Source: Eledone cirrhosa (taxonomy: Eukaryota). From it: a DNA stretch of 64,000 nt. Below the pieces are notes generated by a model. The model did no database searches. It had not been told where the DNA came from and saw only the letters and a program-made list of their open reading frames with translations. The position numbers were made by a program, and so were the translations under genes. Numbering within the stretch: the first letter of the stretch is position 1; each line of letters starts with the position of its first letter. Shown here piece after piece: positions 37,770 through 50,040 of this stretch. The stretch is taken from the NCBI GenBank assembly GCA_964016885.1, contig OZ024759.1, positions 9,548,001 to 9,612,000 of the forward strand. The letters run 5' to 3'.

Positions 37770-38770
37770 TTGGTAAATAATATACTTGTTCTTCTCTTCA
37801 TCATATCCTCGTGTTGGAGGACTTTCTCTTTGTCAACATGTCCCAGTCAGTCGTTGGAGTGTCATACTAGATGTGCAGTCGTGCTTTACAATCATGAGTT
37901 CGATTCTCGTAGCAAGCTTCTGAAGGACTTGTGCTTGATTCTGATAGTTACTTTACCGTGGCAGAATCTCCTTTGGCCCTGCTAGATTCTGGTTATTAAT
38001 ATTAACCAGAATCTTTTGAGAACTGTTGTCTTTGGTCAGAGTGAATATTTCACCCGTCTCCGTAACACACACACACACACACTTAATATGCATTTTTAGT
38101 TTAATATTCTTTTTATTGATAATGTACGTAAATGACTTTCATTTCTTTTTACAGATGTCCAGCCATCAAGATCATATGCTGTGTTGTTTGCCGTAACAAG
38201 TGGGAATGTCGTAGTTTCTTTTAATAAATATACGAGAAAACTAATCGCTATACACACACACACACATCTTTTAATAAAGAAAGTTTACATCATATATACG
38301 AATTGTACTCAGTTTATTTTGAGAAAAATGAATAAAGAAAGTTTACATATTATATACGAATTGTGTTCACTTAATGTTGACAAAAATGAATAAAGAAATC
38401 AAGAGTCTAGAAGAAACCGAGTTCGCCGTGATATAAAGAACGTAAGTGTTTATGAAGTTTCTAAATAAAGAAACTAAGAGTTAGATAAAGTTTCTTGTAA
38501 GAAACTGAGAATGAAGAAGTTTCTAAATAAAGAAACTAAGAGGTAGATAAAGTTTCTTGAAAGAAACTGAGATTAATGAAGTTTCTAAATAAAGAAACTA
38601 AGAATGTTTTTGAAATTATCGAAAAAAAAATCTATGAAATAAGACCTCGTTTTAATTTTTTTATTAAAGGGAGGTAACTCTGTAATATTTTGAACCGAAT
38701 TACCTCCCTTTGAAACACCTTCGTCACCGTCGTTACCACCGTCGGCACCTTCGTAACCGTCGTCACCATT

Positions 38771-39020
38771 ACCGCCGCCGCCTGGTGGCGGAGGTAAAGG
38801 TACCGACGAAGACGAAGGTGCACCGTCGTCTTCGTCGGTACTTTTACCTCCGCCACCAGGTGGCGGCGGTAAAGACACCGACGACGACGAAGGTGCACCG
38901 TCGTCTTCGTCGGTGTCTTTACCGCCGCCACCTGGTGGCGGAGGTAAAAGTACCGACGAAGACGACGGTGCACCTTCGTCTTCGTCGGTACCTTTACCTC
39001 CGCCACCAGGCGGCGGCGGT
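38771..39020. repeat. GC-rich apex of alternating hairpin modules A (25 bp) and B (50 bp): A-B-A-B-A-B-A, 75-bp period
   Basis: A = ACCKCCGCCACCWGGTGGCGGMGGT at 38771, 38846, 38921 and 38996. B = AAAGGTACCGACGAAGACGAAGGTGCACCGTCGTCTTCGTCGGTACTTTT-like at 38796, 38871 and 38946. Confidence 0.95.
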
Positions 39021-42000
39021 AATGGTGACGACGGTTACGAAGGTGCCGACGGTGGTAACGACGGTGACGAAGGTGTTTCAAAGGGAGGTAATTCGGTTCA
39101 AAATATTACAGAGTTACCTCCCTTTAATAAAAAAATTAAAACGAGGTCTTATTTCATAGATTTTTTTTTCGATAATTTCAAAAACATTCTTAGTTTCTTT
39201 ATTTAGAAACTTCATTAATCTCAGTTTCTTTCAAGAAACTTTATCTACCTCTTAGTTTCTTTATTTAGAAACTTCTTCATTCTCAGTTTCTTACAAGAAA
39301 CTTTATCTAACTCTTAGTTTCTTTATTTAGAAACTTCATAAACACTTACGTTCTTTATATCACGGCGAACTCGGTTTCTTCTAGACTCTTGATTTCTTTA
39401 TTCATTTTTGTCAACATTAAGTGAACACAATTCGTATATAATATGTAAACTTTCTTTATTCATTTTTCTCAAAATAAACTGAGTACAATTCGTATATATG
39501 ATGTAAACTTTCTTTATTAAAAGATGTGTGTGTGTGTGTATAGCGATTAGTTTTCTCGTATATTTATTAAAAGAAAGTACGACATTCCCACTTATTACGG
39601 CAAACAACACAGCATATGATCTTGATGGCTGGACATCTGTAAAAAGAAATGAAAGTCATTTACGTACATTATCAATAAAAATAATATTAAACTAAAAATG
39701 CATATTAAGTGTGTGTGTGTGTGTGTGTTACGTAGACGGTGAAATATTCACTCTGACCAAAGACAACAGTTCTCAAAAGATTCTGGTTAATATTAATAAC
39801 CAGAATCTAGCAGGGCCAAAGGAGATTCTGCCACGGTAAAGTAACTATCAGAATCAAGCACAAGTCCTTCAGAAGGTTGCTACGAGAATCGAACTCATGA
39901 TTGTAAAGCACGACTGCACATCTAGTATGACACTCCAACGACTGACTGGGACATGTTGACAAAGAGAAAGTCCTCCAACACGAGGATATGATGAAGAGAA
40001 GAACAAGTATATTATTTACCAACTGTATATATATATATATATAAGTGTGCGTGTGTGTGTGTATATATATATATATGTGTATATATATATATGTGTGTTT
40101 ATATATATGTCTGTGTGTGTGTATATATATGTCTGTGTGTGTGTATATATATATATATGTCTGTCTCTGTGTGTGTATATATATATATATATGTCTGTCT
40201 CTGTGTGTGTATATATATACATATAAATGAAGTAATTCCGTCGGACAAGTCCAGGTAAAAAGAGTGCTCTATGTAGGTAACAGAGCTTAACAGTTATAGA
40301 TTGCATTTTTGTTTTTAGAATCCAATATCAATAAAGACACCAGGATTTTTTCATTCTGATGATTGAAAGCAACATTTTTTGCTTTTAAGAAACCACTGGT
40401 AAATGGAATAATTGCTTTATGTTGTTTATTACATAACTATATATACATATATATAAATATATGTCTGTGTGTGTATATAAATAGCGACGAGTTTATATAT
40501 ATATTAGAAAGCGAACAACACAAACTACTCCATTACCAAAGGTTTCTGGATCATAGACAATAGTAAACGTCTGGATCGGTCGTCAGACAGAGATGTTATC
40601 TTATTTGCCAACTTAAATAATATAGAAATACGCTAAATTCTATTTGATATGACCGAGAAATGTGTGAGGTGACATTACATTGGAAATACAACACGTGGAG
40701 GTGGGGCAGCAGCTAAACAAAACTATTGGTTAATTATTGCTGACATTATGGAGGGAAATAAACGGAAAATGTTTAAGTGAAACTCTTCAATATAAAATAA
40801 AGATTTACTAGCGTTGTCTCACGTTTCTCTAGATCAGTCTGTAGAAATGAGTTGGACAACATCAGTGGCGTGGGGAGGGAAGACTGCTGGTCTTCCACAA
40901 ACAACGTTGCCCGGTCTCGGAGGGGAACTTTTTAGATGAAAATCCCATGGTCAATCGTGAGGGTCTTTACCCTTATATATATATATGTGTGTGTGTATGT
41001 GTGTGTAAGATTGAAGAATAACATGGTCGGCTGCACAAAAAGGTTTTATTTCTAGTATTATCAAAAGTTTCATTGATCAGGTGAGTCTAAAGGCCGCTAA
41101 TCACTCGACCTTAAATACAGTGTTTACCTCTGATCAGAGGTAAACACTATAAAATGTCGAGAAAGATTCTATATGAAACGTGTTTTCTGAAAAGTGTGTA
41201 TCTAAGAGAATGTATGTGTATAGAAAACTATATCCGTTATTGACATAAAGTGTATATATTAGTCCTAGTAGCAAAGAAAACATTACATACCTCTTTACAT
41301 GAAAGTAATATCCAAAATGGTTCTCTTCCAAAGAACCGGAAGTCACTTAAAAAAAAAGAAGAGTTTAAAAAAAGGGAGATAAATACATTAAAATTTTAGA
41401 GCAAAAATCGAGTTAAGTTCGAATGTAGTAAGAAGTAACTAAGGTTCTATTCCAACTGTCTTCTTAGAACCCTTGAAAGTTACTTACATTCTTGGAAGAC
41501 AGTTAGATTAGAACCTTAGCTACTTCTTACTACATTCTTGACTCACTTAGATTCGAACCTTTGATACTTCAAGGTTCTTGGAAGACAGTTGGATTCGAAC
41601 CTTCAATACTTTCTTTATATACTTGAAGGTTCTTGATACTTAGATGGTTACATTCTTGGACGACTATTGGATTCGAACCCTTAATGATACTTTTTACATT
41701 ATTGATTTTTATTGATACTTTTCATTCTCTTTATGTTACTTACTACTTTTGGACGACTGTTACATTCGAACCCTTGATGGTTCTTTCTCTGATATTTCTT
41801 TCCTTTTCACATTATTGATATTTCTATTCTCTTTCCTTAGATTGTAACCATTGGTGATACTGTCTATTTTTGGAGCGACTGTTTGATTTGAAACCTTGAT
41901 GAGGCTGTTTAAACATTCTTAGTGTCTTTGTCAAAATAAACTGAACACAATTCGTATATAATATGTAAACTTTATTCATTTTTGTCAAAATAAACTGAAC

Positions 42001-42158
42001 ACGATTCGTATATATGTAAGCTTTCTTAACAGAGAGTTCGCCATTCTTTACAGCTTGAAGGCTGGATATCTAAAAGTAATAAAAGTCATTTACATACGTT
42101 ATCAATGAAAAGAATATTAAACTTTATAGAATTCTTCCAAGTTTGTTTTTTATTAGAT

Positions 42159-42712
42159 ACTAGCAGAATGGCCCGACGTTGTTCGGGATTTGCTCTAGGG
42201 TTCTTATATATTTATCCTTATCGAGCCTCGCGAAATAAATACGTTTGTTTATATTTTGCTATTGTATATGCAAAAATATCTGTACACGAATATATAATTA
42301 TATATATTAAAATAACAGATTAATTTTTAAGCAAAGAATCGCTGCTTTTACCCTTAACGGGATCTTCTGAAACTAAAAAAATCAATCTGTGAACGCAGAA
42401 GTAAATATTTCGAAAAACGTTGCAATCGAAGGAAAACAGGAAGACTATTTGCAGACAGTTAGGCATACAGACAGATATTATAAGGGCGTGACGTTATATG
42501 TATGTATCTATCTAAAAAGAGAAAGACTAAGAATTATAGAGAGAGATCGCTAAATCGCCTAATGCATTGAAAATTTGAAATTTATTTTGCTCAAAACACC
42601 ACTCACGGGACCATAAGTACTACATGTGTAAAGTTTGAATAAAACTCGGTTGGGTGGTTCTCGAGTTTTAGTAATCTTATGCTATATACTACATTTCTAG
42701 AAATGTAGATAT
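42159..42712 (+). mobile_element. Non-autonomous Helitron-like element; truncated mirror copy at 34649-35066
   Basis: 5' end TACTAGCAGAATGGCCCGACGTTGTTCGGG, internal TGTGTAAAGTTTGAATAAAACTCGGTTGGGTGGTTCTCGAG, and 3' hairpin CTACATTTCTAGAAATGTAG. The empty site is seen at ~48515. Confidence 0.6.
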
Positions 42713-42719
42713 ATCATAA

Positions 42720-43030
42720 GATGTACTGAAGGACAATGTAAAGATAAGAATATAGTGTACATAGGTGAGACAGCTCGTAGTATAGGAGAACGGTTAAATG
42801 AACACTGGCGAGAGCTTCAAGATAAAAAAGAATCATCAATACTCCACCAACATGCTAAAATAGAACATAAGGGCATATTAGAGAACATAGAAATAAAAAT
42901 AGAATCTACACACAGAAAAGACGCAATGTTTAGTCAAATCACAGAGGCAATAAACATAAATGAACTCCAACCAAAATTAAATAGAAAACATGAATGGAAT
43001 AGCAACATCACAACTTACAGTTAAGGACAA
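42720..43030 (+). mobile_element. Penelope-like GIY-YIG endonuclease C-terminal fragment
   Basis: YIGETARSIGERLNEH...SILHQH...ITEAININELQPKLNRKHEW. A related remnant lies at 57940-58640. Confidence 0.85.
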
Positions 43031-43714
43031 AATGAAAACACACACACACATAGAACAAACAACCAACCAGTAGCATTTAAATAAACAAATAAAAACACAC
43101 ACAGACACCCGGATGTAACACATGCGCAAACTAAGTACACAACACACACAAAAACAAGATGGCGTAGGACAGAACAAAGGAGAGGCACAAAAACAAAGAA
43201 AAGAATCCCCAATCACTGAAAAGGTCACAGAATTTGTGGCGAAAGAACTTTGACAATATATGAACAACCGTCCGGTTGTGGAACCAACCAACCAGCCAAC
43301 CAGAAATTTATAAAATCCTAAATTTATAAATTTAATTTATAATAAATTGGAGTGAAAGCAACTGGTGCGTGTGTTTCTTATTGACAACATGACCCTCCCA
43401 AAGTATAACAAAATTAGTATACTTATAGGTAAAATTTTATTCATTTAAAAAAAAATATAGAAACGGAAAAGGAGGTAACACGTCTCAAAATATATTTCAT
43501 GTGTTATCTCACATTCCGTTTCGATATTTAAATTAATTTAGAATCTACAAGTATTTTGTACATATATACAGAACAATTATTATGGAGATAAAAATATGTA
43601 CACATATGTGTGGGTGTGTGTATATATATACATAAGTTTATGAATAATTATATATGTGTATATATACATATACAAAGTGTCTTGCTCAAGGAAACAACAC
43701 ATCACCCAATTCTC

Positions 43715-43986
43715 AGACCGAGTGATGTGTTGTTTCCTTGAGCAAGACACTTTATTTCACATTGCTCCAGTTTACTCAGCTGTAGAAATGAGATTATAGG
43801 GACTGGGATCCCTATCATTCCACTGTAAAGTGGTCGTGGAGGTGCCACGGCAAAAAAGCACCCAGCACTCACTGTAAATGAGGTTGGTGTTAGGAAGGGC
43901 ATCCAGCTGTAGAAATCAAGCCAGAATCAGTTCCCGTCCCACCCTTGCAAGCAGGTAAAAAGCGGACGTAAAATGAAATGATGATG
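43715..43986 (+). mobile_element. CORE-type SINE, 5'-truncated, preceded by a short inverted duplication (43674-43752)
   Basis: AAAGTGTCTTGCTCAAGGAAACAACACATCAC pairs with GTGATGTGTTGTTTCCTTGAGCAAGACACTTT. Confidence 0.85.
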
Positions 43987-46900
43987 AAATGAAATTATAC
44001 AGACATATGTATATGTTTCAAGGAAGATGATAAGCTACAGGAGAGGTTCACAGTAGAAGTGAGGAACAGGTTCAGTGCTCAGAGGAGAGAGAGATTGGAG
44101 GGACTAAGGAGAGTGTGACGGGGAGGTACCGGTACTTCACCAATGCAAGTGAGACCCTGGTGCCGAGGAAAGAGAAGAAGAGGAAGCATCGTCAGCTCTG
44201 ATAGAGAAGATCAGAAGTGTGGAGAGAGCGGTTGACAGGTCTAGGTGTAAGGAGAGCTGGATGATCATCAACGAGATCACAGGGAGGAAGAGAGGGGGTT
44301 CGAGTCAGATCCAGGGAACAGGGCCCGAGAATATGAAGAGGAAATAGCTGAGGGCCCTGTTCCCTGGATCTGACTCGAACCCTTTCTCTTCCTCGTTGAT
44401 GATCATCCAGCTCTCCTTATATATATAGAAACTTCAAAGGTTCATTTACATATTAATAACATTTCGAAAAGAAACGCCAGCCACCTATACTGGAAGTCCG
44501 AGACTCAGTTCGCATGCCACCGCGAAGGCCGCAATTCTACTGAGTAAATTAATGGTACTTATGGCTACTTGGGAAATATTTTGATAAAAAAAAAATAGTA
44601 TATGCAAAGGGAACAAATATTTTTTTCATAAGACAATTATTAACGCATTGGTGGTGTTGTGAAGATGGGGTTTTCAATGTCTGCCAACGGAGTGTTTAGG
44701 GGGTTTAATTGTGGAGGTTTATCGAAGTTTGATGGTGACCGTGTTCTACAATTGAGGATCCTTTGATGACTGCAAGACCTTATGATGGAGATGCAAATTA
44801 GACATGTCTCTAAATCTTTGTTTACAGTCAAGCGATAGCCACAGAAGATTATATAGGTTAGACATGTCTTTTAACCGCTCTTTTGGCGTACATGCGTTGG
44901 CCACAAAATATTACAGGACATTGAGCCTTCGAGATGGAAAGAGACTGAGGTGGGAAAGACACTTCCACTGAAATATCTACTGCCTGTACAGTCACCAAAG
45001 GAAGTATAGACTGACATTGACAACCACAAGTGCACCCCGTAACAACACACACATATCACCAGCAATGCATCAACAATTTACAAATGAAAAATATATTAAT
45101 ACCTGAATTACAATCGATACAAATGTGACTAATACGTACCTTGATGTATTCCAGGTTTAAGGACACATGACCCCAGTTCTTGTGATGTTAAAATACAGGT
45201 CAACCTTTTATAAGCTGCCTTAGATGTAAACGGTAAGGAGGGACTGTATATCAGGGACACATCCTTACATGTAATTGTAGGCCGTATGGAGGTACAGCTA
45301 CCATAATAGACTATAAAGGGGACGTTAGATGCAACTGTAGGCCGCGTGGAAGGACAGAATACTGTATATCAGTGACGTTAAAAGACAGACCCATCCTTAG
45401 ATGTAACTGTGGACGGTAAGGAGGGACAGCTACCACAATATGCTGGAAGACAAACACAACCTTACAGCTGCCGTGTGGGGGGACAGCTACCACAGTATAC
45501 TGTATAACAGGGACGTTACAAGACAGACACAAACTTATATTACGTTTAACTGTGGTTCTTATGGAGGGAGAGCTACCACAATATACTGTAAATAAAGGAC
45601 GTTTAAAGGACAAACACAACCTTAGATGTAACAGTATATCACGTTAAAAGGCAGGCCCGGCTCTCTAGACTGTAAGTAAACTTAAAGATGGAGGTATTCC
45701 ACCAGCCTACACCCATATCACCATTGGCGAGACTGAACTAAACAGTCCATCATATCAGCTGCCTGGGCAGCATCTTCACATCACATGCCAAGATTGAGAG
45801 GGAAATCCGCAACAGACTGGCAAAGGTGACCAGTGGATTTGATAGACTGTACTAACGTGTGGAAGATTAAACATGAAGCTGGACAGTAAGAAGTTGTGTA
45901 GGAGAAAGGTTCGTAGGTATGGCTATTTCCAGTCGAGGTGGGCTGCAGGGAATCATCGGCTTAATCAGTATGGAGGATGCTCACAATCATTGGAATGACA
46001 GGACGAGAGAAGAAGGCTGCAGTTCGCAGGATGAGGGAGGCTTTGGAGAAGGAGAGAGGGGATTGAGGGTAAATATTCCCAATGAACGAAGGGCACGGAT
46101 ATCAACCTCAAGGCTATGTCCATCGAAGGCGAATGAACCCGAGGACATAATTATGCCTATATATCATCATCAACGTTTAATGTCTATCTTCCACGCTAGA
46201 ATGGATTAGACGAGTCTGTCCCATTTAGAGGCAAGTTCGGTGGGGTGACCGCTCATATATATATAAGCAGGATCGAAGTCAATTGCAGCATATATATAAA
46301 CTTTATTGGCATATTGCAATCGTATCAATATCGATCATCTCAGGGTACAATCATAATTACGGACTTACGTAACATATGTGTGTGGGAGTGGCGATTGAAT
46401 AACTGGAATAGTTAAAACACCCGAGAAAACCTCTCCAGAATACAAAATTAATTTACAACAGTTTCAGAAAATGTTTAGCACTGTTGAAGAATTGAATCAA
46501 CAATTTAAGGTCTTTGATCTCAATCTTGAAAGAAGCATTTAAATACACTGAAATATTAACAACTAGGAAGAGTTTTAAAGAAATACACTCGACATATTTT
46601 CTGTGAATAAAAAAGAAACATGTTGAATTTTATTGTTTATTTTCAGCATGAATTGGATCACGTGGTCTGTGTATTTCATTAGGAATATGGTAAGAGACTT
46701 CCCCTGGATAGGACGCCAGTCGATTGCAAGATTAAAGTCTGTCTCAAATCCGGAGCCTCATTAGACCGGTGTTTATCCGAATCAGTTAGTCGGCTGAAAA
46801 TACAGGAACCTCACCTGGACAGAACGCCAGTCTATCACAGAGTTACACCCCATGATACTACTGGTACTCATTTTCACCTAAGTATACTGGAGCCACGTGA

Positions 46901-48374
46901 AATGAAGTGTTTTGCTCAAGAACACAACACGATCAAGAATCGACCTTATGACATTATGATCGTAAGTCCAACACTGTAACCACTATGCGAAGAAATACTG
47001 AAGTTCCACACGGTGTGTGACAAGACTGACTCAATTACAGGTACAGGCTTCCAGAATAGATGCTGTCTACTAAATTTCCCTCATGGGTCAACTAAAGTTT
47101 ATGATGACCCTTGCCCAAGATGTCATTCTCTCACCTAATGATTGAGAATTCACGTGGGGAAAGTTAATCGATATCGATCTATTAACACTGATCAATACTT
47201 CAACCATGATCACCAGAAAAACAGACGTACACTGTTCTTGGACTATTAAAGGCGAAAACAAAACTTAGGTGTATAGAACTAAATTTACGACATTACAAGA
47301 CGGAAGATAAGATTCCCCCATCGACAAAGTCAAATGGGAGAAAAAGGGTTTAAAACATAGATGGTGAACAGCTGGACTTATTGTGTGTAACTCGGAAAGA
47401 TCGCAAGAGGTGGGCAACAATCGAAACGACCACGTTAGATTGTTAATTGGGAATGAGTTAGAATACGTAAACAAGAGAACTAGAAGGTGTAAATAGTATA
47501 TCATACGAAAGAGACTAAGAGGGAAAGATTTACAAACCTCAACATAATATAGAAATCTACGTTACCTTTCGGAAAGCTGCTATTGTCCATTGTTAAACCA
47601 TTTAGCAAGAGTTTTTGTAAAGCTTGTAAAATTCTACAAGCTGACGGCCATTTTTTTTCTTGTTTTGAATGCGCAAGCGCGAGATTTAGAAATCTAGTGC
47701 GCATGTTTCAATTATACTGACCATGCTACAGCACCCTCTAAGATCCTTGGGCATGCTACAGCACCTTCTAAGATGCCTGGCCATGCTACAGCACTAGTTA
47801 ATCTATAATTACATGCGTAATTCCCAGGGAAATTCAGTATTATAAGACTGGCCATTGTCAATTACAGATGAGACACAGTTTCTGTTTACCCAGTTTCACA
47901 TGGGGTGTGATCGAATCTGGGACTTAAAGATGGCGAAATAAACCCACAAGTTAGTCGATATCGATCTTTACAAACACTGATAGACAGTTAACCAATGATT
48001 AGTATACAGCGGAAGAAAGTGATCGAAAAATGAAATGAATTTACAATTGTTTTAGGTTTACGTATGACTCAAGAGCACCAGCAATAAGTGGGGGGTTAAC
48101 CCTGTGATGGACTTACGTTCGGGGGGGGGGGGGGAGTCTTGTACTCTCAGTCACTTTAGGGGATAAGCTTTTCGCGACAGACCAGAGAATCCGGGGCAAT
48201 CTTGATTGTATGCCCCTAAGACTCAAGTATAAGGCTTCATATACTGAGAAAGGAAAACATTTTCAATATATAAACGCTTTATTCGATTTTAATATAAATC
48301 AATCGAATTTATTAAGTTACTTTCCCCAAAGGATGTCCCCTCTTCACATACTTTGGAGATTCAAGACAATCGGC

Positions 48375-50040
48375 CCATTTTTTTTTTAGATATCATGACC
48401 GTGTTAACTGGATCGATATCACTTTAACATAGAACCATTTACATTCTTAGTTTCCTTCGTTAGTTACCTCCCTTGATGTAGGAAAAGGTTTTCTTGTTTC
48501 CTCTTTTTAAATGTATATATAATAAAAAACAAACTTGGAAGAATTTTATAAAGTTTAATAATCTTTTTATTGATAACGTATGTAAATGTCTTTTATTTTT
48601 TTTTTACAGATGTCCAGCCTTCAAGGTGATATGCTGTGTTGCCGTAAAAAATGGCGAACTCTCTGTTAAGAAAGTTTACATATATACGAATCGTGTTCAG
48701 TTTATTTTGACAAAAATGAATAAAGTTTACATATTATATACGAATTGTGTTCAGTTTATTTTGACAAAGACACTAAGAATGTTTAAACAGCCTCATCAAG
48801 GTTTCAAATCCAACAGTCGCTCCAAAAATAGACAGTATCACCAATGGTTACAATCTAAGGAAAGAGAATAGAAAATATCAATAATGTGAAAAGGAAAGAA
48901 ATAGAGAAAGAACCATCAAGGGTTCGAATGTAACAGTCGTCCAAAAGTAGTAAGTAACAGAAAGGGAATGAAAAGTGACTATCAATAAAAGGCAACAATA
49001 TAAAAAGTGTCATTAAGGGTTTGAATCCAACAGTCGTCCAAGAATGTAGTAACCATCAAGGGTTCCAAGTATCAAGAACCTTCAAGTATGTAAAGAAAAT
49101 ATTGAAGGTTCGAATCCAACTGTCTTCCAAGAACCTTGAAGTATCAAAGGTTTGAATCTAAGTAAGTCAAGAATGTAGTAAGAAGTATCTAAGGTTCGAA
49201 TCCTACTGTCTTCCAAGAATGTAAATAACCTTCAAGGGTTCTAAGAAAGTAGTAAGAAGTATCTAAGAAGACAGTTAGATACTTCTTACTACATTCTTGA
49301 CTTACTTAGATTCGAACCTTTGATACTTCAAGGTTCTTGGAAGACAGTTGGATTCGAACCTTCAATACTTTCTTTACATACTTGAAGTTTCTTGATACTT
49401 AGAACCCTTGATGGTTACTACATTCTTGGACGACTGTTGGATTCGAAGCCTTAATGACACTTTTTACATTGTTCACTTTTATTGATACTTACTTTTACCC
49501 TTTATGTTACTTACTATTTTAGACGACTGCTACATTCGAACCCTTGATGGTTCTTTCTCTAATTTTCTTTCCTTTTCACATTATTGATATTTTCTATTCT
49601 CTTTCCTTAGATTGGAACCATTGGTGATACTGTCTACATTGTTTATTGGACAACCATTTTCGGTCGAAACCTTGATGAGGCTGTTTAAACATTCTTAGTG
49701 TTTTTGTCATTCATTTTTATCAAAATAAACTGAGCACGATTCGTATATATGTATTGTTACGGCAACACAGCATATGACCTTGAAGGCTGGACATCTGCAA
49801 AAAGAAATAAAAGACATTTACATATGTTATCAATAAAAAGAATATTAAACTTTATAAATTCTTCCAAGTTTGTTTTTTATTATATATACATTTAAAAAGA
49901 GGAAACAAGAAAACCTTTTCCTACATCAAGGGAGGTAACTAACGAAATAAACTAAGAATGTAAATGGTTCTATGTTACGTCGGTTAAAGTGATATCGATC
50001 TAGTTAACACGATCATGATATCTATAAAAAAAAAAATGGG
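48375..50040. repeat. 1.66-kb imperfect foldback built from the same module as the arms of the giant palindrome, axis ~49270
   Basis: CCCATTTTTTTTTTAGATATCATGACCGTGTTAACT pairs with AGTTAACACGATCATGATATCTATAAAAAAAAAAATGGG. 48515-49250 is highly similar to 35066-35700. Confidence 0.9.

What the first reader, a model, noticed from the sequence alone, without database searches (positions are those of the whole stretch)
38454..39337. GC-rich multi-hairpin apex with flip/flop modules, resembling the fused hairpin telomere of a linear replicon
Seen: in otherwise AT-rich DNA, a ~360-bp GC-rich island (38715-39076) sits exactly on the axis of the 7.9-kb palindrome. Its core is A-B-A-B-A-B-A, where A (25 bp) and B (50 bp) are each imperfect self-complementary hairpins. 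Successive A modules alternate orientation (ACCGCC..CCTGG..GGAGGT vs ACCTCC..CCAGG..GGCGGT). The B modules occur as GACGAAGGTGCACCGTCGTC and its flip GACGACGGTGCACCTTCGTC, and the central B keeps two unpaired positions. On each side come ~110 bp of unique AT-rich DNA and then 62-bp tandem repeats (38454, 38516, 38578). Established: imperfect terminal hairpins in flip/flop forms with adjacent tandem repeats describe parvoviral rolling-hairpin termini and poxvirus/asfarvirus concatemer junctions. Inference: this could be an integrated head-to-head junction of an unknown hairpin-ended linear element, or a hairpin-primed origin that drove repeated fold-back synthesis. No replication protein gene is visible nearby.
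Basis: partly seen in the sequence, partly recalled or inferred. Interest (0 to 1): 0.8.

Follow-up and report, generated by a model that had tools for sequence, protein, structure and literature searches.

The report
Nested fold-back palindrome in host repeats
The GC-rich multi-hairpin centre is real, but it is eight 37-base copies of one simple repeat in alternating directions at the axis of a palindrome built from a local multi-copy repeat family with no viral gene found nearby, so it is likely a scar of repeated fold-back DNA copying in the animal's own chromosome rather than a virus end, and it may be read into a long hairpin RNA.

Summary
Observation confirmed with corrections. The 362-bp island (61% GC) lies on the axis 38895/6, but A and B are only the two junction types between eight alternately inverted 37.5-bp half-units, and most of the 'flip/flop' is forced by the big mirror. 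The informative order (A, B, A', B, A, B', A') fits two rounds of hairpin-primed doubling, not plain tandem duplication. The '7.9-kb palindrome' is a patchwork: 1.15-kb inner arms 99.1% alike, outer arms 95.7%, unrelated inserts between. The arms come from a local repeat family that forms further foldbacks (axes ~36247, ~41479, ~49270) without this apex, each with inward-pointing splice-acceptor-like sites. Contigs of one public study show apex, spacer and 62-bp unit in several diverged versions. Poxvirus and parvovirus membership fail: GC-rich tip, resolution-site-like motif far off and reversed, no Rep, polymerase, resolvase or capsid hit. No target-site duplication for a foldback transposon. 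Best reading: chromosomal fold-back inversion with a self-amplified apex; it works like rolling-hairpin synthesis in miniature. Open and more interesting: a cluster of spliced long-hairpin RNA units in a probable mollusc. Interest 0.35.

The parts
38715..39076 (.). GC-rich island (61.3% GC) on the palindrome axis 38895/38896
38746..39045 (.). eight alternately inverted 37/38-bp half-units (h0' h1 h2' h3 | h3'' h2 h1' h0) of a GGN/GAN triplet-like repeat; seven mirror axes at 38783, 38820.5, 38858, 38895.5, 38933, 38970.5, 39008
38896..38914 (+). 19 bases right of the main axis identical to the 19 bases right of the B1 axis (38821-38839); they carry both central mismatches; inferred slipped fold-back primer
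38716..38770 (.). degenerate 9/21-bp triplet repeat leading into the outermost half-unit (mirror 39021-39075); inferred ancestral seed of the apex
38604..38714 (.). AT-rich spacer with a 12-bp-stem hairpin at 38666-38711 (mirror 39077-39187)
38454..38603 (.). 62-bp tandem array, 2.4 copies, 31-bp subperiod (mirror 39188-39337); partial relative at 50234-50258
38273..38398 (.). 58-bp tandem array, 2.2 copies (mirror 39393-39518), shared with the other family members
38098..38170 (+). family 'F' start: T-rich tract and AG at 38153-38154, splice-acceptor-like, pointing at the axis (mirror AG at 39637-39638, minus strand)
   Evidence: function inferred
37749..40043 (.). inner palindrome, arms 1.15 kb, 99.1% (7 mismatches, 2 gaps); no mismatch between 38215 and 38884
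34649..35745 (+). left outer arm (95.7% to 41484-42575): truncated Helitron-like piece 34649-35066, then family F copy F1
   Evidence: Helitron label recalled from end motifs, no tool
41484..42575 (-). right outer arm; the Helitron-like piece runs on beyond the mirror to about 42673
36077..36413 (.). short foldback of F1 (axis ~36247, AT-rich apex, 19-nt loop); mirrored at axis ~41479
48374..50040 (.). separate foldback of family F (arms 48374-49192/49275-50040, 95.6%), different AT-rich apex, two inward-pointing acceptor-like pairs

Best explanation
The island is the axis of a spacer-less palindrome built from a local non-coding repeat family, and it likely arose in the host chromosome by repeated fold-back copying: a broken or stalled strand in a GGN/GAN triplet repeat would snap back on a short imperfect hairpin and prime its own mirror copy, several times over. 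Shown: eight alternately inverted half-units; junction order A, B, A', B, A, B', A'; both central mismatches lie in 19 bases that copy the previous junction directly; the two inner arms share private letters; the same family makes other foldbacks with other apexes. Inferred: first fold at A, second at B1, then a 75-bp slip that re-used the B1 primer for a third fold at the main axis, which copied the whole 1.15-kb arm; later arm-to-arm conversion kept the centre identical while microsatellites and inserts eroded the outer parts; segmental copying spread apex-bearing units elsewhere in the genome. No viral protein is needed. If the inward-pointing acceptor-like sites are used, a transcript would form a hairpin of about 740 bp; that is untested.
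For: Half-unit parse and seven axes. A2 differs from A1 at 4 positions read directly and at 1 read inverted, so it is a mirror copy, against plain tandem duplication; B2's 20-base core equals B1's in direct orientation and its right half matches B1's for 19 bases. A symbolic simulation of two hairpin-primed doublings gives exactly the observed junction order. 17 of 21 informative substitution columns among six family arms join the two inner arms (1.0% apart; 14-19% from the other four), node 100/100. Both F1 arms share the Helitron-like flank and a 20-base gap, both F3 arms share another flank. Three further fold axes in the family with different apexes. In run X3 a 121-base contig with 9 other letters bridges an A and a B axis with 31 or more letters on each side, and a 197-base contig links 62-bp unit, spacer and island start at depth 93, while other contigs of the same run lie at depth 6-14; 127 of 268 contigs laid from X1 are under 95% alike. 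Fold-back inversions primed by short single-strand hairpins are established (PMC7467729, PMC7999016; passages read).
Against: The junction order is one of four patterns that the big mirror allows, so the match has chance 1 in 4. The outermost half-unit differs from the inner ones at 8-10 of 37 positions while these differ at 2-6; a strict three-fold history predicts h0 close to h3, so extra conversion must be assumed. Substitutions do not resolve the F1 and F3 arm pairs (fork open); their pairing rests on flanks and gaps. No piece spans the apex together with a unique flank; X1 and X3 are one sample of one study, kind not on record, and they lack the window's letters at several sites, so this copy itself was not checked, and summed depth is no copy number. 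Long spacer-less palindromes are the least stable kind (PMC7999016), so persistence of this one is not explained by a neutral scar alone. Close inverted repeats are also common outside the family: 8 of 19 hairpin axes in the window-wide census lie outside the family's foldbacks and one more (41133) is unassigned.
Confidence: 0.58

Rival explanations
1. The foldbacks are kept by selection as a cluster of spliced long-hairpin RNA genes: each unit is entered through the acceptor-like site, runs through the apex and pairs with itself, giving double-stranded RNA for ADAR editing, Dicer or piRNA processing. Same origin as the best explanation, but functional.
For: All 8 matches of the acceptor-like motif in the window (0.99 expected) lie in palindrome arms and point at an axis, as 4 mirrored pairs; 6 of the 15 strongest acceptor-like sites of the 64-kb window are of this family; invariant columns among the six arms cluster around this site; 38155-39640 folds as one RNA rod of -1322 kcal/mol. 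Lead only: in run X4 (kind not on record, 88 million letters of contigs) two records start to match at 38153, the AG itself, with other sequence before it, and the apex bins have depth 0. Fly hairpin-RNA loci arise repeatedly, come in clusters, can be spliced and lack RNA-seq signal in the duplex (PMC10317233, passages).
Against: The eight motifs are copies of one ancestor, so they are not independent; read on the other strand they resemble A-rich tails. No promoter, donor site or poly(A) site was shown. Contigs cannot show strand, start or level of an RNA, and diverged DNA paralogues could give the same loose end. Molluscs are reported to lack siRNA-type Dicer and Argonaute (PMC12479628, passages). 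No target gene: five protein searches and one Atlas look-up with the apex frames found nothing.
Confidence: 0.2
2. A non-autonomous foldback transposon (FB, Tetris or Galileo type) whose long terminal inverted repeats hold internal tandem repeats, here nested and clustered.
For: Long inverted arms with 58-, 62- and 76-bp internal tandem arrays; several versions in the genome; variable centres. These match the description of foldback elements in PMC4079207 (passages).
Against: No target-site duplication above chance at any of four candidate boundaries (6 of 100 random pairs reach 8 bases or more). The three palindromes start at three different points; the outer left end lies inside a Helitron-like piece that abuts a reverse-transcriptase fragment. 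The inner arms are each other's closest relatives. No transposase hit.
Confidence: 0.1
3. One reading: an integrated head-to-head junction of an unknown hairpin-ended linear virus or plasmid.
For: Imperfect central hairpin, alternating orientations as in unresolved rolling-hairpin concatemers (PMC8195378, passages), tandem repeats further out, raised depth over apex and spacer in X1/X3, one degenerate resolution-site-like match on each arm.
Against: Repeat unit only 37.5 bp; GC-rich tip; motif reversed and 268 bp away; no replication or capsid family in 133 ORFs; arms share modules with foldbacks that lack the apex; 0 matches in viral and metagenome contigs and phages, 1 low-complexity 64-base match in an archaeal plasmid gene. 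These collections hold few animal viruses, so their blank is weak.
Confidence: 0.05
4. The inner palindrome is an artefact of fold-back long reads or was made more perfect by consensus polishing.
For: 670 bp on each side of the centre are identical; fold-back reads make up about 0.55-0.6% of nanopore genomic reads (PMC12870357, passages); no piece spans apex plus unique flank.
Against: Arm differences grow outward and include separate inserts, such as 40212-40457, which matches a palindromic repeat at 8911-9203; the flanks on the two sides are different; a contig of run X3 bridges two fold axes; other family foldbacks are 4-5% diverged between arms.
Confidence: 0.07

Closest known systems
Fold-back inversions (hairpin-primed inverted duplications; yeast GCRs, PMC7467729; review PMC7999016)
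   Same: Inverted duplication centred on a short imperfect hairpin; arms copied from each other.
   Different: Here folding was iterated at 37.5-bp spacing, leaving seven nested axes; it stands in a genome assembly and recurs in several paralogues.
Rolling-hairpin replication concatemers of parvoviruses such as AAV (PMC8195378)
   Same: Self-priming hairpins, alternating orientation of units, flipped junction copies.
   Different: Unit is 37.5 bp of simple repeat, not a genome; no Rep/NS1 or capsid gene found; embedded in host repeats.
Poxvirus concatemer junction (PMC8956199, PMC13668194)
   Same: Imperfect hairpin on the axis, tandem repeats further out.
   Different: GC-rich instead of 84-93% A+T; resolution-site-like motif not adjacent and in the opposite direction; no viral genes.
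Foldback transposons (FB, Tetris, Galileo; PMC4079207)
   Same: Long inverted arms with internal tandem arrays, several copies, variable centre.
   Different: No target-site duplication, no common termini, no middle domain, inner arms are sisters.
Drosophila hairpin-RNA (hpRNA) loci (PMC10317233)
   Same: Clustered, repeatedly born long inverted repeats, acceptor-like entry sites.
   Different: Transcription, small RNAs and a target are not shown; molluscs are reported to lack the siRNA pathway (PMC12479628).

Membership tests
Poxvirus concatemer junction | AT-rich incompletely paired hairpin at the axis (84-93% A+T) | tested here: not met
   61-63% GC; PMC8956199 passages
Poxvirus concatemer junction | Concatemer resolution site adjacent to the hairpin, T-run distal | tested here: not met
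   Recalled degenerate pattern matches 38608-38627(-)/39164-39183(+), 268 bp from the axis with the T-run proximal; 7 matches at 5 sites in the window; orientation compared with PMC13668194
Poxvirus concatemer junction | Tandem repeats outside the hairpin | tested here: met
   62- and 58-bp arrays, but shared with local paralogues
Poxvirus concatemer junction | Viral genes and resolvase in the arms | tested here: not met
   no such Pfam hit in 133 ORFs of 62 aa or more, 23.9-60.7 kb
Parvovirus terminal hairpin / rolling-hairpin junction | Self-annealing palindrome able to prime, alternating-orientation units | tested here: met
   (structure only; priming inferred)
Parvovirus terminal hairpin / rolling-hairpin junction | Rep/NS1 and capsid genes inside a genome-length unit | tested here: not met
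   unit is 37.5 bp
Parvovirus terminal hairpin / rolling-hairpin junction | Rep-binding repeats and nick site | tested here: inconclusive
   two recalled motifs have 0 matches in 37.7-40.1 kb; motifs of unknown viruses cannot be tested
Parvovirus terminal hairpin / rolling-hairpin junction | Flip and flop forms among molecules, hairpin-ended DNA | not testable with these tools
   only contigs and a RAD-seq run without depth over the apex
Foldback transposon | Long inverted arms with internal tandem repeats | tested here: met
Foldback transposon | 8-10-bp target-site duplication | tested here: not met
   four boundaries, offsets of 15 bases either way
Foldback transposon | Common termini among copies | tested here: not met
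   three palindromes, three starts; window only, no genome held
hpRNA gene | Long inverted repeat, often clustered | tested here: met
hpRNA gene | Capped, spliced transcript through both arms | tested here: inconclusive
   acceptor-like motifs; loose end at 38153 in X4, kind not on record
hpRNA gene | Dicer-2-dependent 21-nt siRNAs against a target gene | not testable with these tools
   no small-RNA data; PMC12479628 reports no siRNA pathway in molluscs
Fold-back inversion | Short imperfect hairpin at the junction | tested here: met
   two mismatched pairs within 11 bases of the axis
Fold-back inversion | Arms descend from each other | tested here: met
   17 of 21 informative columns
Fold-back inversion | Unfolded ancestral allele or second junction identifiable | not testable with these tools
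   no genome or spanning reads

The most novel reading that the evidence does not exclude
A cluster of spliced long-hairpin RNA genes in a probable cephalopod, born again and again by fold-back from one non-coding exon module, one of which grew its apex by host-driven rolling-hairpin-like doubling; since molluscs are reported to lack the siRNA pathway, the double-stranded RNA would feed another route (ADAR hyper-editing, Dicer-1 or piRNA).
Probability: 0.2. Interest if true: 0.72.

Novelty: new variant of a known kind. Interest (0 to 1): 0.35.

Why it matters
As a structure it is a compact fossil of iterated hairpin-primed synthesis: seven nested axes whose flip order can be read, inside a spacer-less palindrome of a kind that is normally unstable. 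With paralogues in hand it allows a test of how such apexes grow and how palindrome arms are homogenised in an animal genome. If the inward-pointing acceptor-like sites are used, it would be a hairpin-RNA cluster in a lineage reported to have no siRNA pathway, which makes the fate of long endogenous double-stranded RNA in molluscs testable. It is not evidence of a new linear virus.

Tried and rejected
No genome is held for this window, so the genome-wide survey could not be run. Sequencing-run search: 4 of 7 listed runs hold part of 37770-40020 (shares 0.14-0.43, one study); no RNA holder listed, which says nothing on expression. RAD-seq run X5 has no depth over the apex. Exact patterns: 0 in viral contigs, 0 in metagenome contigs. 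blastn of 38400-39400: no phage match; one 64-base low-complexity match in an archaeal plasmid gene, rejected as chance. Coding reading of the apex: two open frames of 149 and 157 aa on each strand, the first without a start codon; no Pfam family, no homologue in three word searches, a full HMMER search of the last 65 aa, the Atlas or viral contigs; most differences among inner half-units fall on third triplet positions, but a triplet repeat gives that by itself, so a coding origin stays unshown. Rfam on 30-56 kb: 30 matches, none at the gathering score; the miRNA matches on the apex are generic hairpins. Target-site duplications: none. Earlier findings: nothing by place or sequence, nothing for one word search, eight prokaryotic nested palindromes for another, none bearing on this locus. 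Ten literature searches listed no paper on such a locus in a cephalopod; the library lacks most subscription journals and I read no supplement or repeat library.
Full report
Setting. The window is repeat-rich animal DNA: microsatellites, minisatellites, reverse-transcriptase, GIY-YIG and PHD fragments.

The observation. The island 38715-39076 is 61.3% GC between 25.7% flanks and sits on a spacer-less axis at 38895/38896. The A/B parse is correct letter for letter, but a simpler one exists: eight half-units of 37/38 bp in alternating orientation, with seven mirror axes 37.5 bp apart; A is the one junction type, B the other. A4, A3 and B3 are exact reverse complements of A1, A2 and B1, which any palindrome forces. 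The 62-bp array has 2.4 copies. The larger palindrome is a patchwork: inner arms 37749-38895/38896-40043 at 99.1% with no mismatch from 38215 to 38884, outer arms 34649-35745/41484-42575 at 95.7%, and short mirrored blocks among unrelated inserts between them. One insert, 40212-40457, is on the right arm only and matches a palindromic repeat at 8911-9203.

What the apex records. Two facts are not forced by the mirror. A2 is the inverted copy of A1 (1 difference inverted, 4 direct), which speaks against plain tandem duplication of a 75-bp unit. B2 has B1's 20-base core in the same orientation, and the 19 bases right of the main axis equal the 19 bases right of the B1 axis, including both central mismatches. 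The resulting order A, B, A', B, A, B', A' is the order that two rounds of hairpin-primed doubling give in a symbolic simulation. This is one of four orders that the mirror allows, so it is mild support. Against a strict history, the outermost half-unit differs from the inner ones at 8-10 of 37 positions and these from each other at 2-6; later conversion among the inner units must be assumed. The seed is a GGN/GAN triplet repeat (38716-38770 and mirror) in which short complementary stretches are frequent (inference).

What the arms are. They are built from a local family that starts with a T-rich tract and AG and goes on into AT-rich tandem units of 58, 62 or 76 bp. The family forms other foldbacks with different, AT-rich apexes: axis ~36247 and its mirror ~41479, and 48374-50040 with arms 95.6% alike. 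Further shuffled pieces lie at 50069-52553. Among six aligned arms, 17 of 21 informative substitution columns join the two inner arms, which are 1.0% apart and 14-19% from the rest. The other two pairs are not resolved by substitutions but share flanks and gaps pairwise. So fold-back, or arm-to-arm conversion, happened repeatedly in this family. The outer ends are not element ends: the left one lies inside a Helitron-like piece (label from recalled end motifs) that runs on beyond the mirror on the right, and no target-site duplication stands out at four tested boundaries. Close hairpins are not private to the family: 8 of 19 axes in a window-wide census lie outside it and one more is unassigned.

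Outside data. Four of seven listed runs hold part of 37770-40020, all from one study. I laid four of the seven. X1 and X3 are one sample, kind not on record; 16-17 million contigs and 1.4 billion letters suggest genomic DNA (inference). 127 of 268 contigs laid from X1 are under 95% alike, several sites carry two letters at high depth, and the 62-bp unit loops back on itself at depth 208-240, so the modules exist in several versions. In X3 a 121-base contig with 9 other letters bridges an A and a B axis, and a 197-base contig at depth 93 joins 62-bp unit, spacer and island start. The alternating architecture is therefore not peculiar to this assembly. Limits: no piece spans apex plus unique flank, summed depth is no copy number, and these contigs lack the window's letters at several sites (such as 38695 and its mirror 39096), so this copy itself was not checked. 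In X4 (88 million letters, kind not on record) two records begin to match at 38153, the AG of the acceptor-like site, and the apex has no depth; this would fit spliced RNA from paralogues but is only a lead.

Comparison. Poxvirus hairpins are 84-93% A+T and the resolution site adjoins them (PMC8956199, passages), T-run distal (PMC13668194, passages); here the tip is GC-rich and a recalled degenerate pattern matches 268 bp away in the opposite direction. AAV-type rolling-hairpin replication gives alternating concatemers and flip/flop ends but needs Rep and a nick site (PMC8195378, passages); 133 stop-to-stop frames of 62 aa or more between 23.9 and 60.7 kb (low-complexity frames and the rest of the window left out) gave no Rep, polymerase, resolvase, capsid or transposase family. 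Foldback transposons have long arms with internal arrays and 8-10-bp duplications (PMC4079207, passages); only the first is met. Fold-back inversions primed by single-strand hairpins (PMC7467729 and PMC7999016, passages) fit both tests I could run. Fly hpRNA clusters (PMC10317233, passages) fit in anatomy: all 8 acceptor-like motif matches in the window point at an axis and the unit would fold into one rod; but expression is not shown and molluscs are reported to lack siRNA machinery (PMC12479628, passages). Nanopore fold-back artefacts exist (PMC12870357, passages), but the graded arm differences and the X3 contig argue against them. I also read the first third of an octopus repeat annotation (PMC13282606) and the abstract of a fungal inverted-triplication preprint (10.1101/2025.01.14.632981); neither describes this locus in what I saw. 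No supplements were read; curated repeat libraries there may already hold this family.

Verdict. It works like rolling-hairpin synthesis in miniature but is not a member of any hairpin-telomere family. Best reading: host chromosomal nested fold-back, 0.58; selected hairpin-RNA cluster 0.20; foldback transposon 0.10; artefact 0.07; integrated linear-replicon junction 0.05. New variant of a known kind; interest 0.35.

Noticed in passing
window:48374-50040: A separate 1.67-kb foldback of the same family, arms 95.6% alike, about 80-base central region with its own small hairpin, two inward-pointing pairs of acceptor-like sites.
   Followed up: partly
window:50069-52553: Shuffled, diverged pieces of the palindrome arms (matches to 36589-36664, 36813-36852, 37124-37173, 37980-38060, 40603-40809); the piece at 52200-52292 and its paralogue at 39946-40044 read as similar 30-aa frames with an 18-base in-frame gap, perhaps a decayed exon.
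   Followed up: partly
window:35500-36260, 41480-41700, 48900-49480: 76-bp and related tandem units carry a tRNA B-box-like motif (15 of 21 window matches lie in 34.6-52.6 kb, two of them outside the family) and a STAT-site-like 9-mer (14 of 15); both labels recalled from memory.
   Followed up: no
window:42674-43250: Penelope-like GIY-YIG fragment (Pfam hit) whose truncated 5' end forms a short hairpin (42674-42722); a hammerhead-like stretch near 43215-43250 by eye, not found by Rfam.
   Followed up: no
window:34649-35066 and 42157-42673: Helitron-like non-coding piece shared by both outer arms and absent from the other family copies.
   Followed up: partly
window:30-228, 6575-6695, 8046-8116, 8653-8833, 8992-9183, 43674-43753, 44284-44394: Other palindromic repeats of 70-200 bp outside the family, MITE-like in size.
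   Followed up: no
window:31182-33050 and 59780-60688: Two inverted copies (94-97%) of a LINE with reverse transcriptase and an embedded PHD finger, 27 kb apart.
   Followed up: no
window:27109-27519: DUF7041 frame (E 2e-19) followed by a 42-bp minisatellite.
   Followed up: no
window:12723-15495: 2.8-kb trinucleotide (CAC) array, about 930 copies.
   Followed up: no
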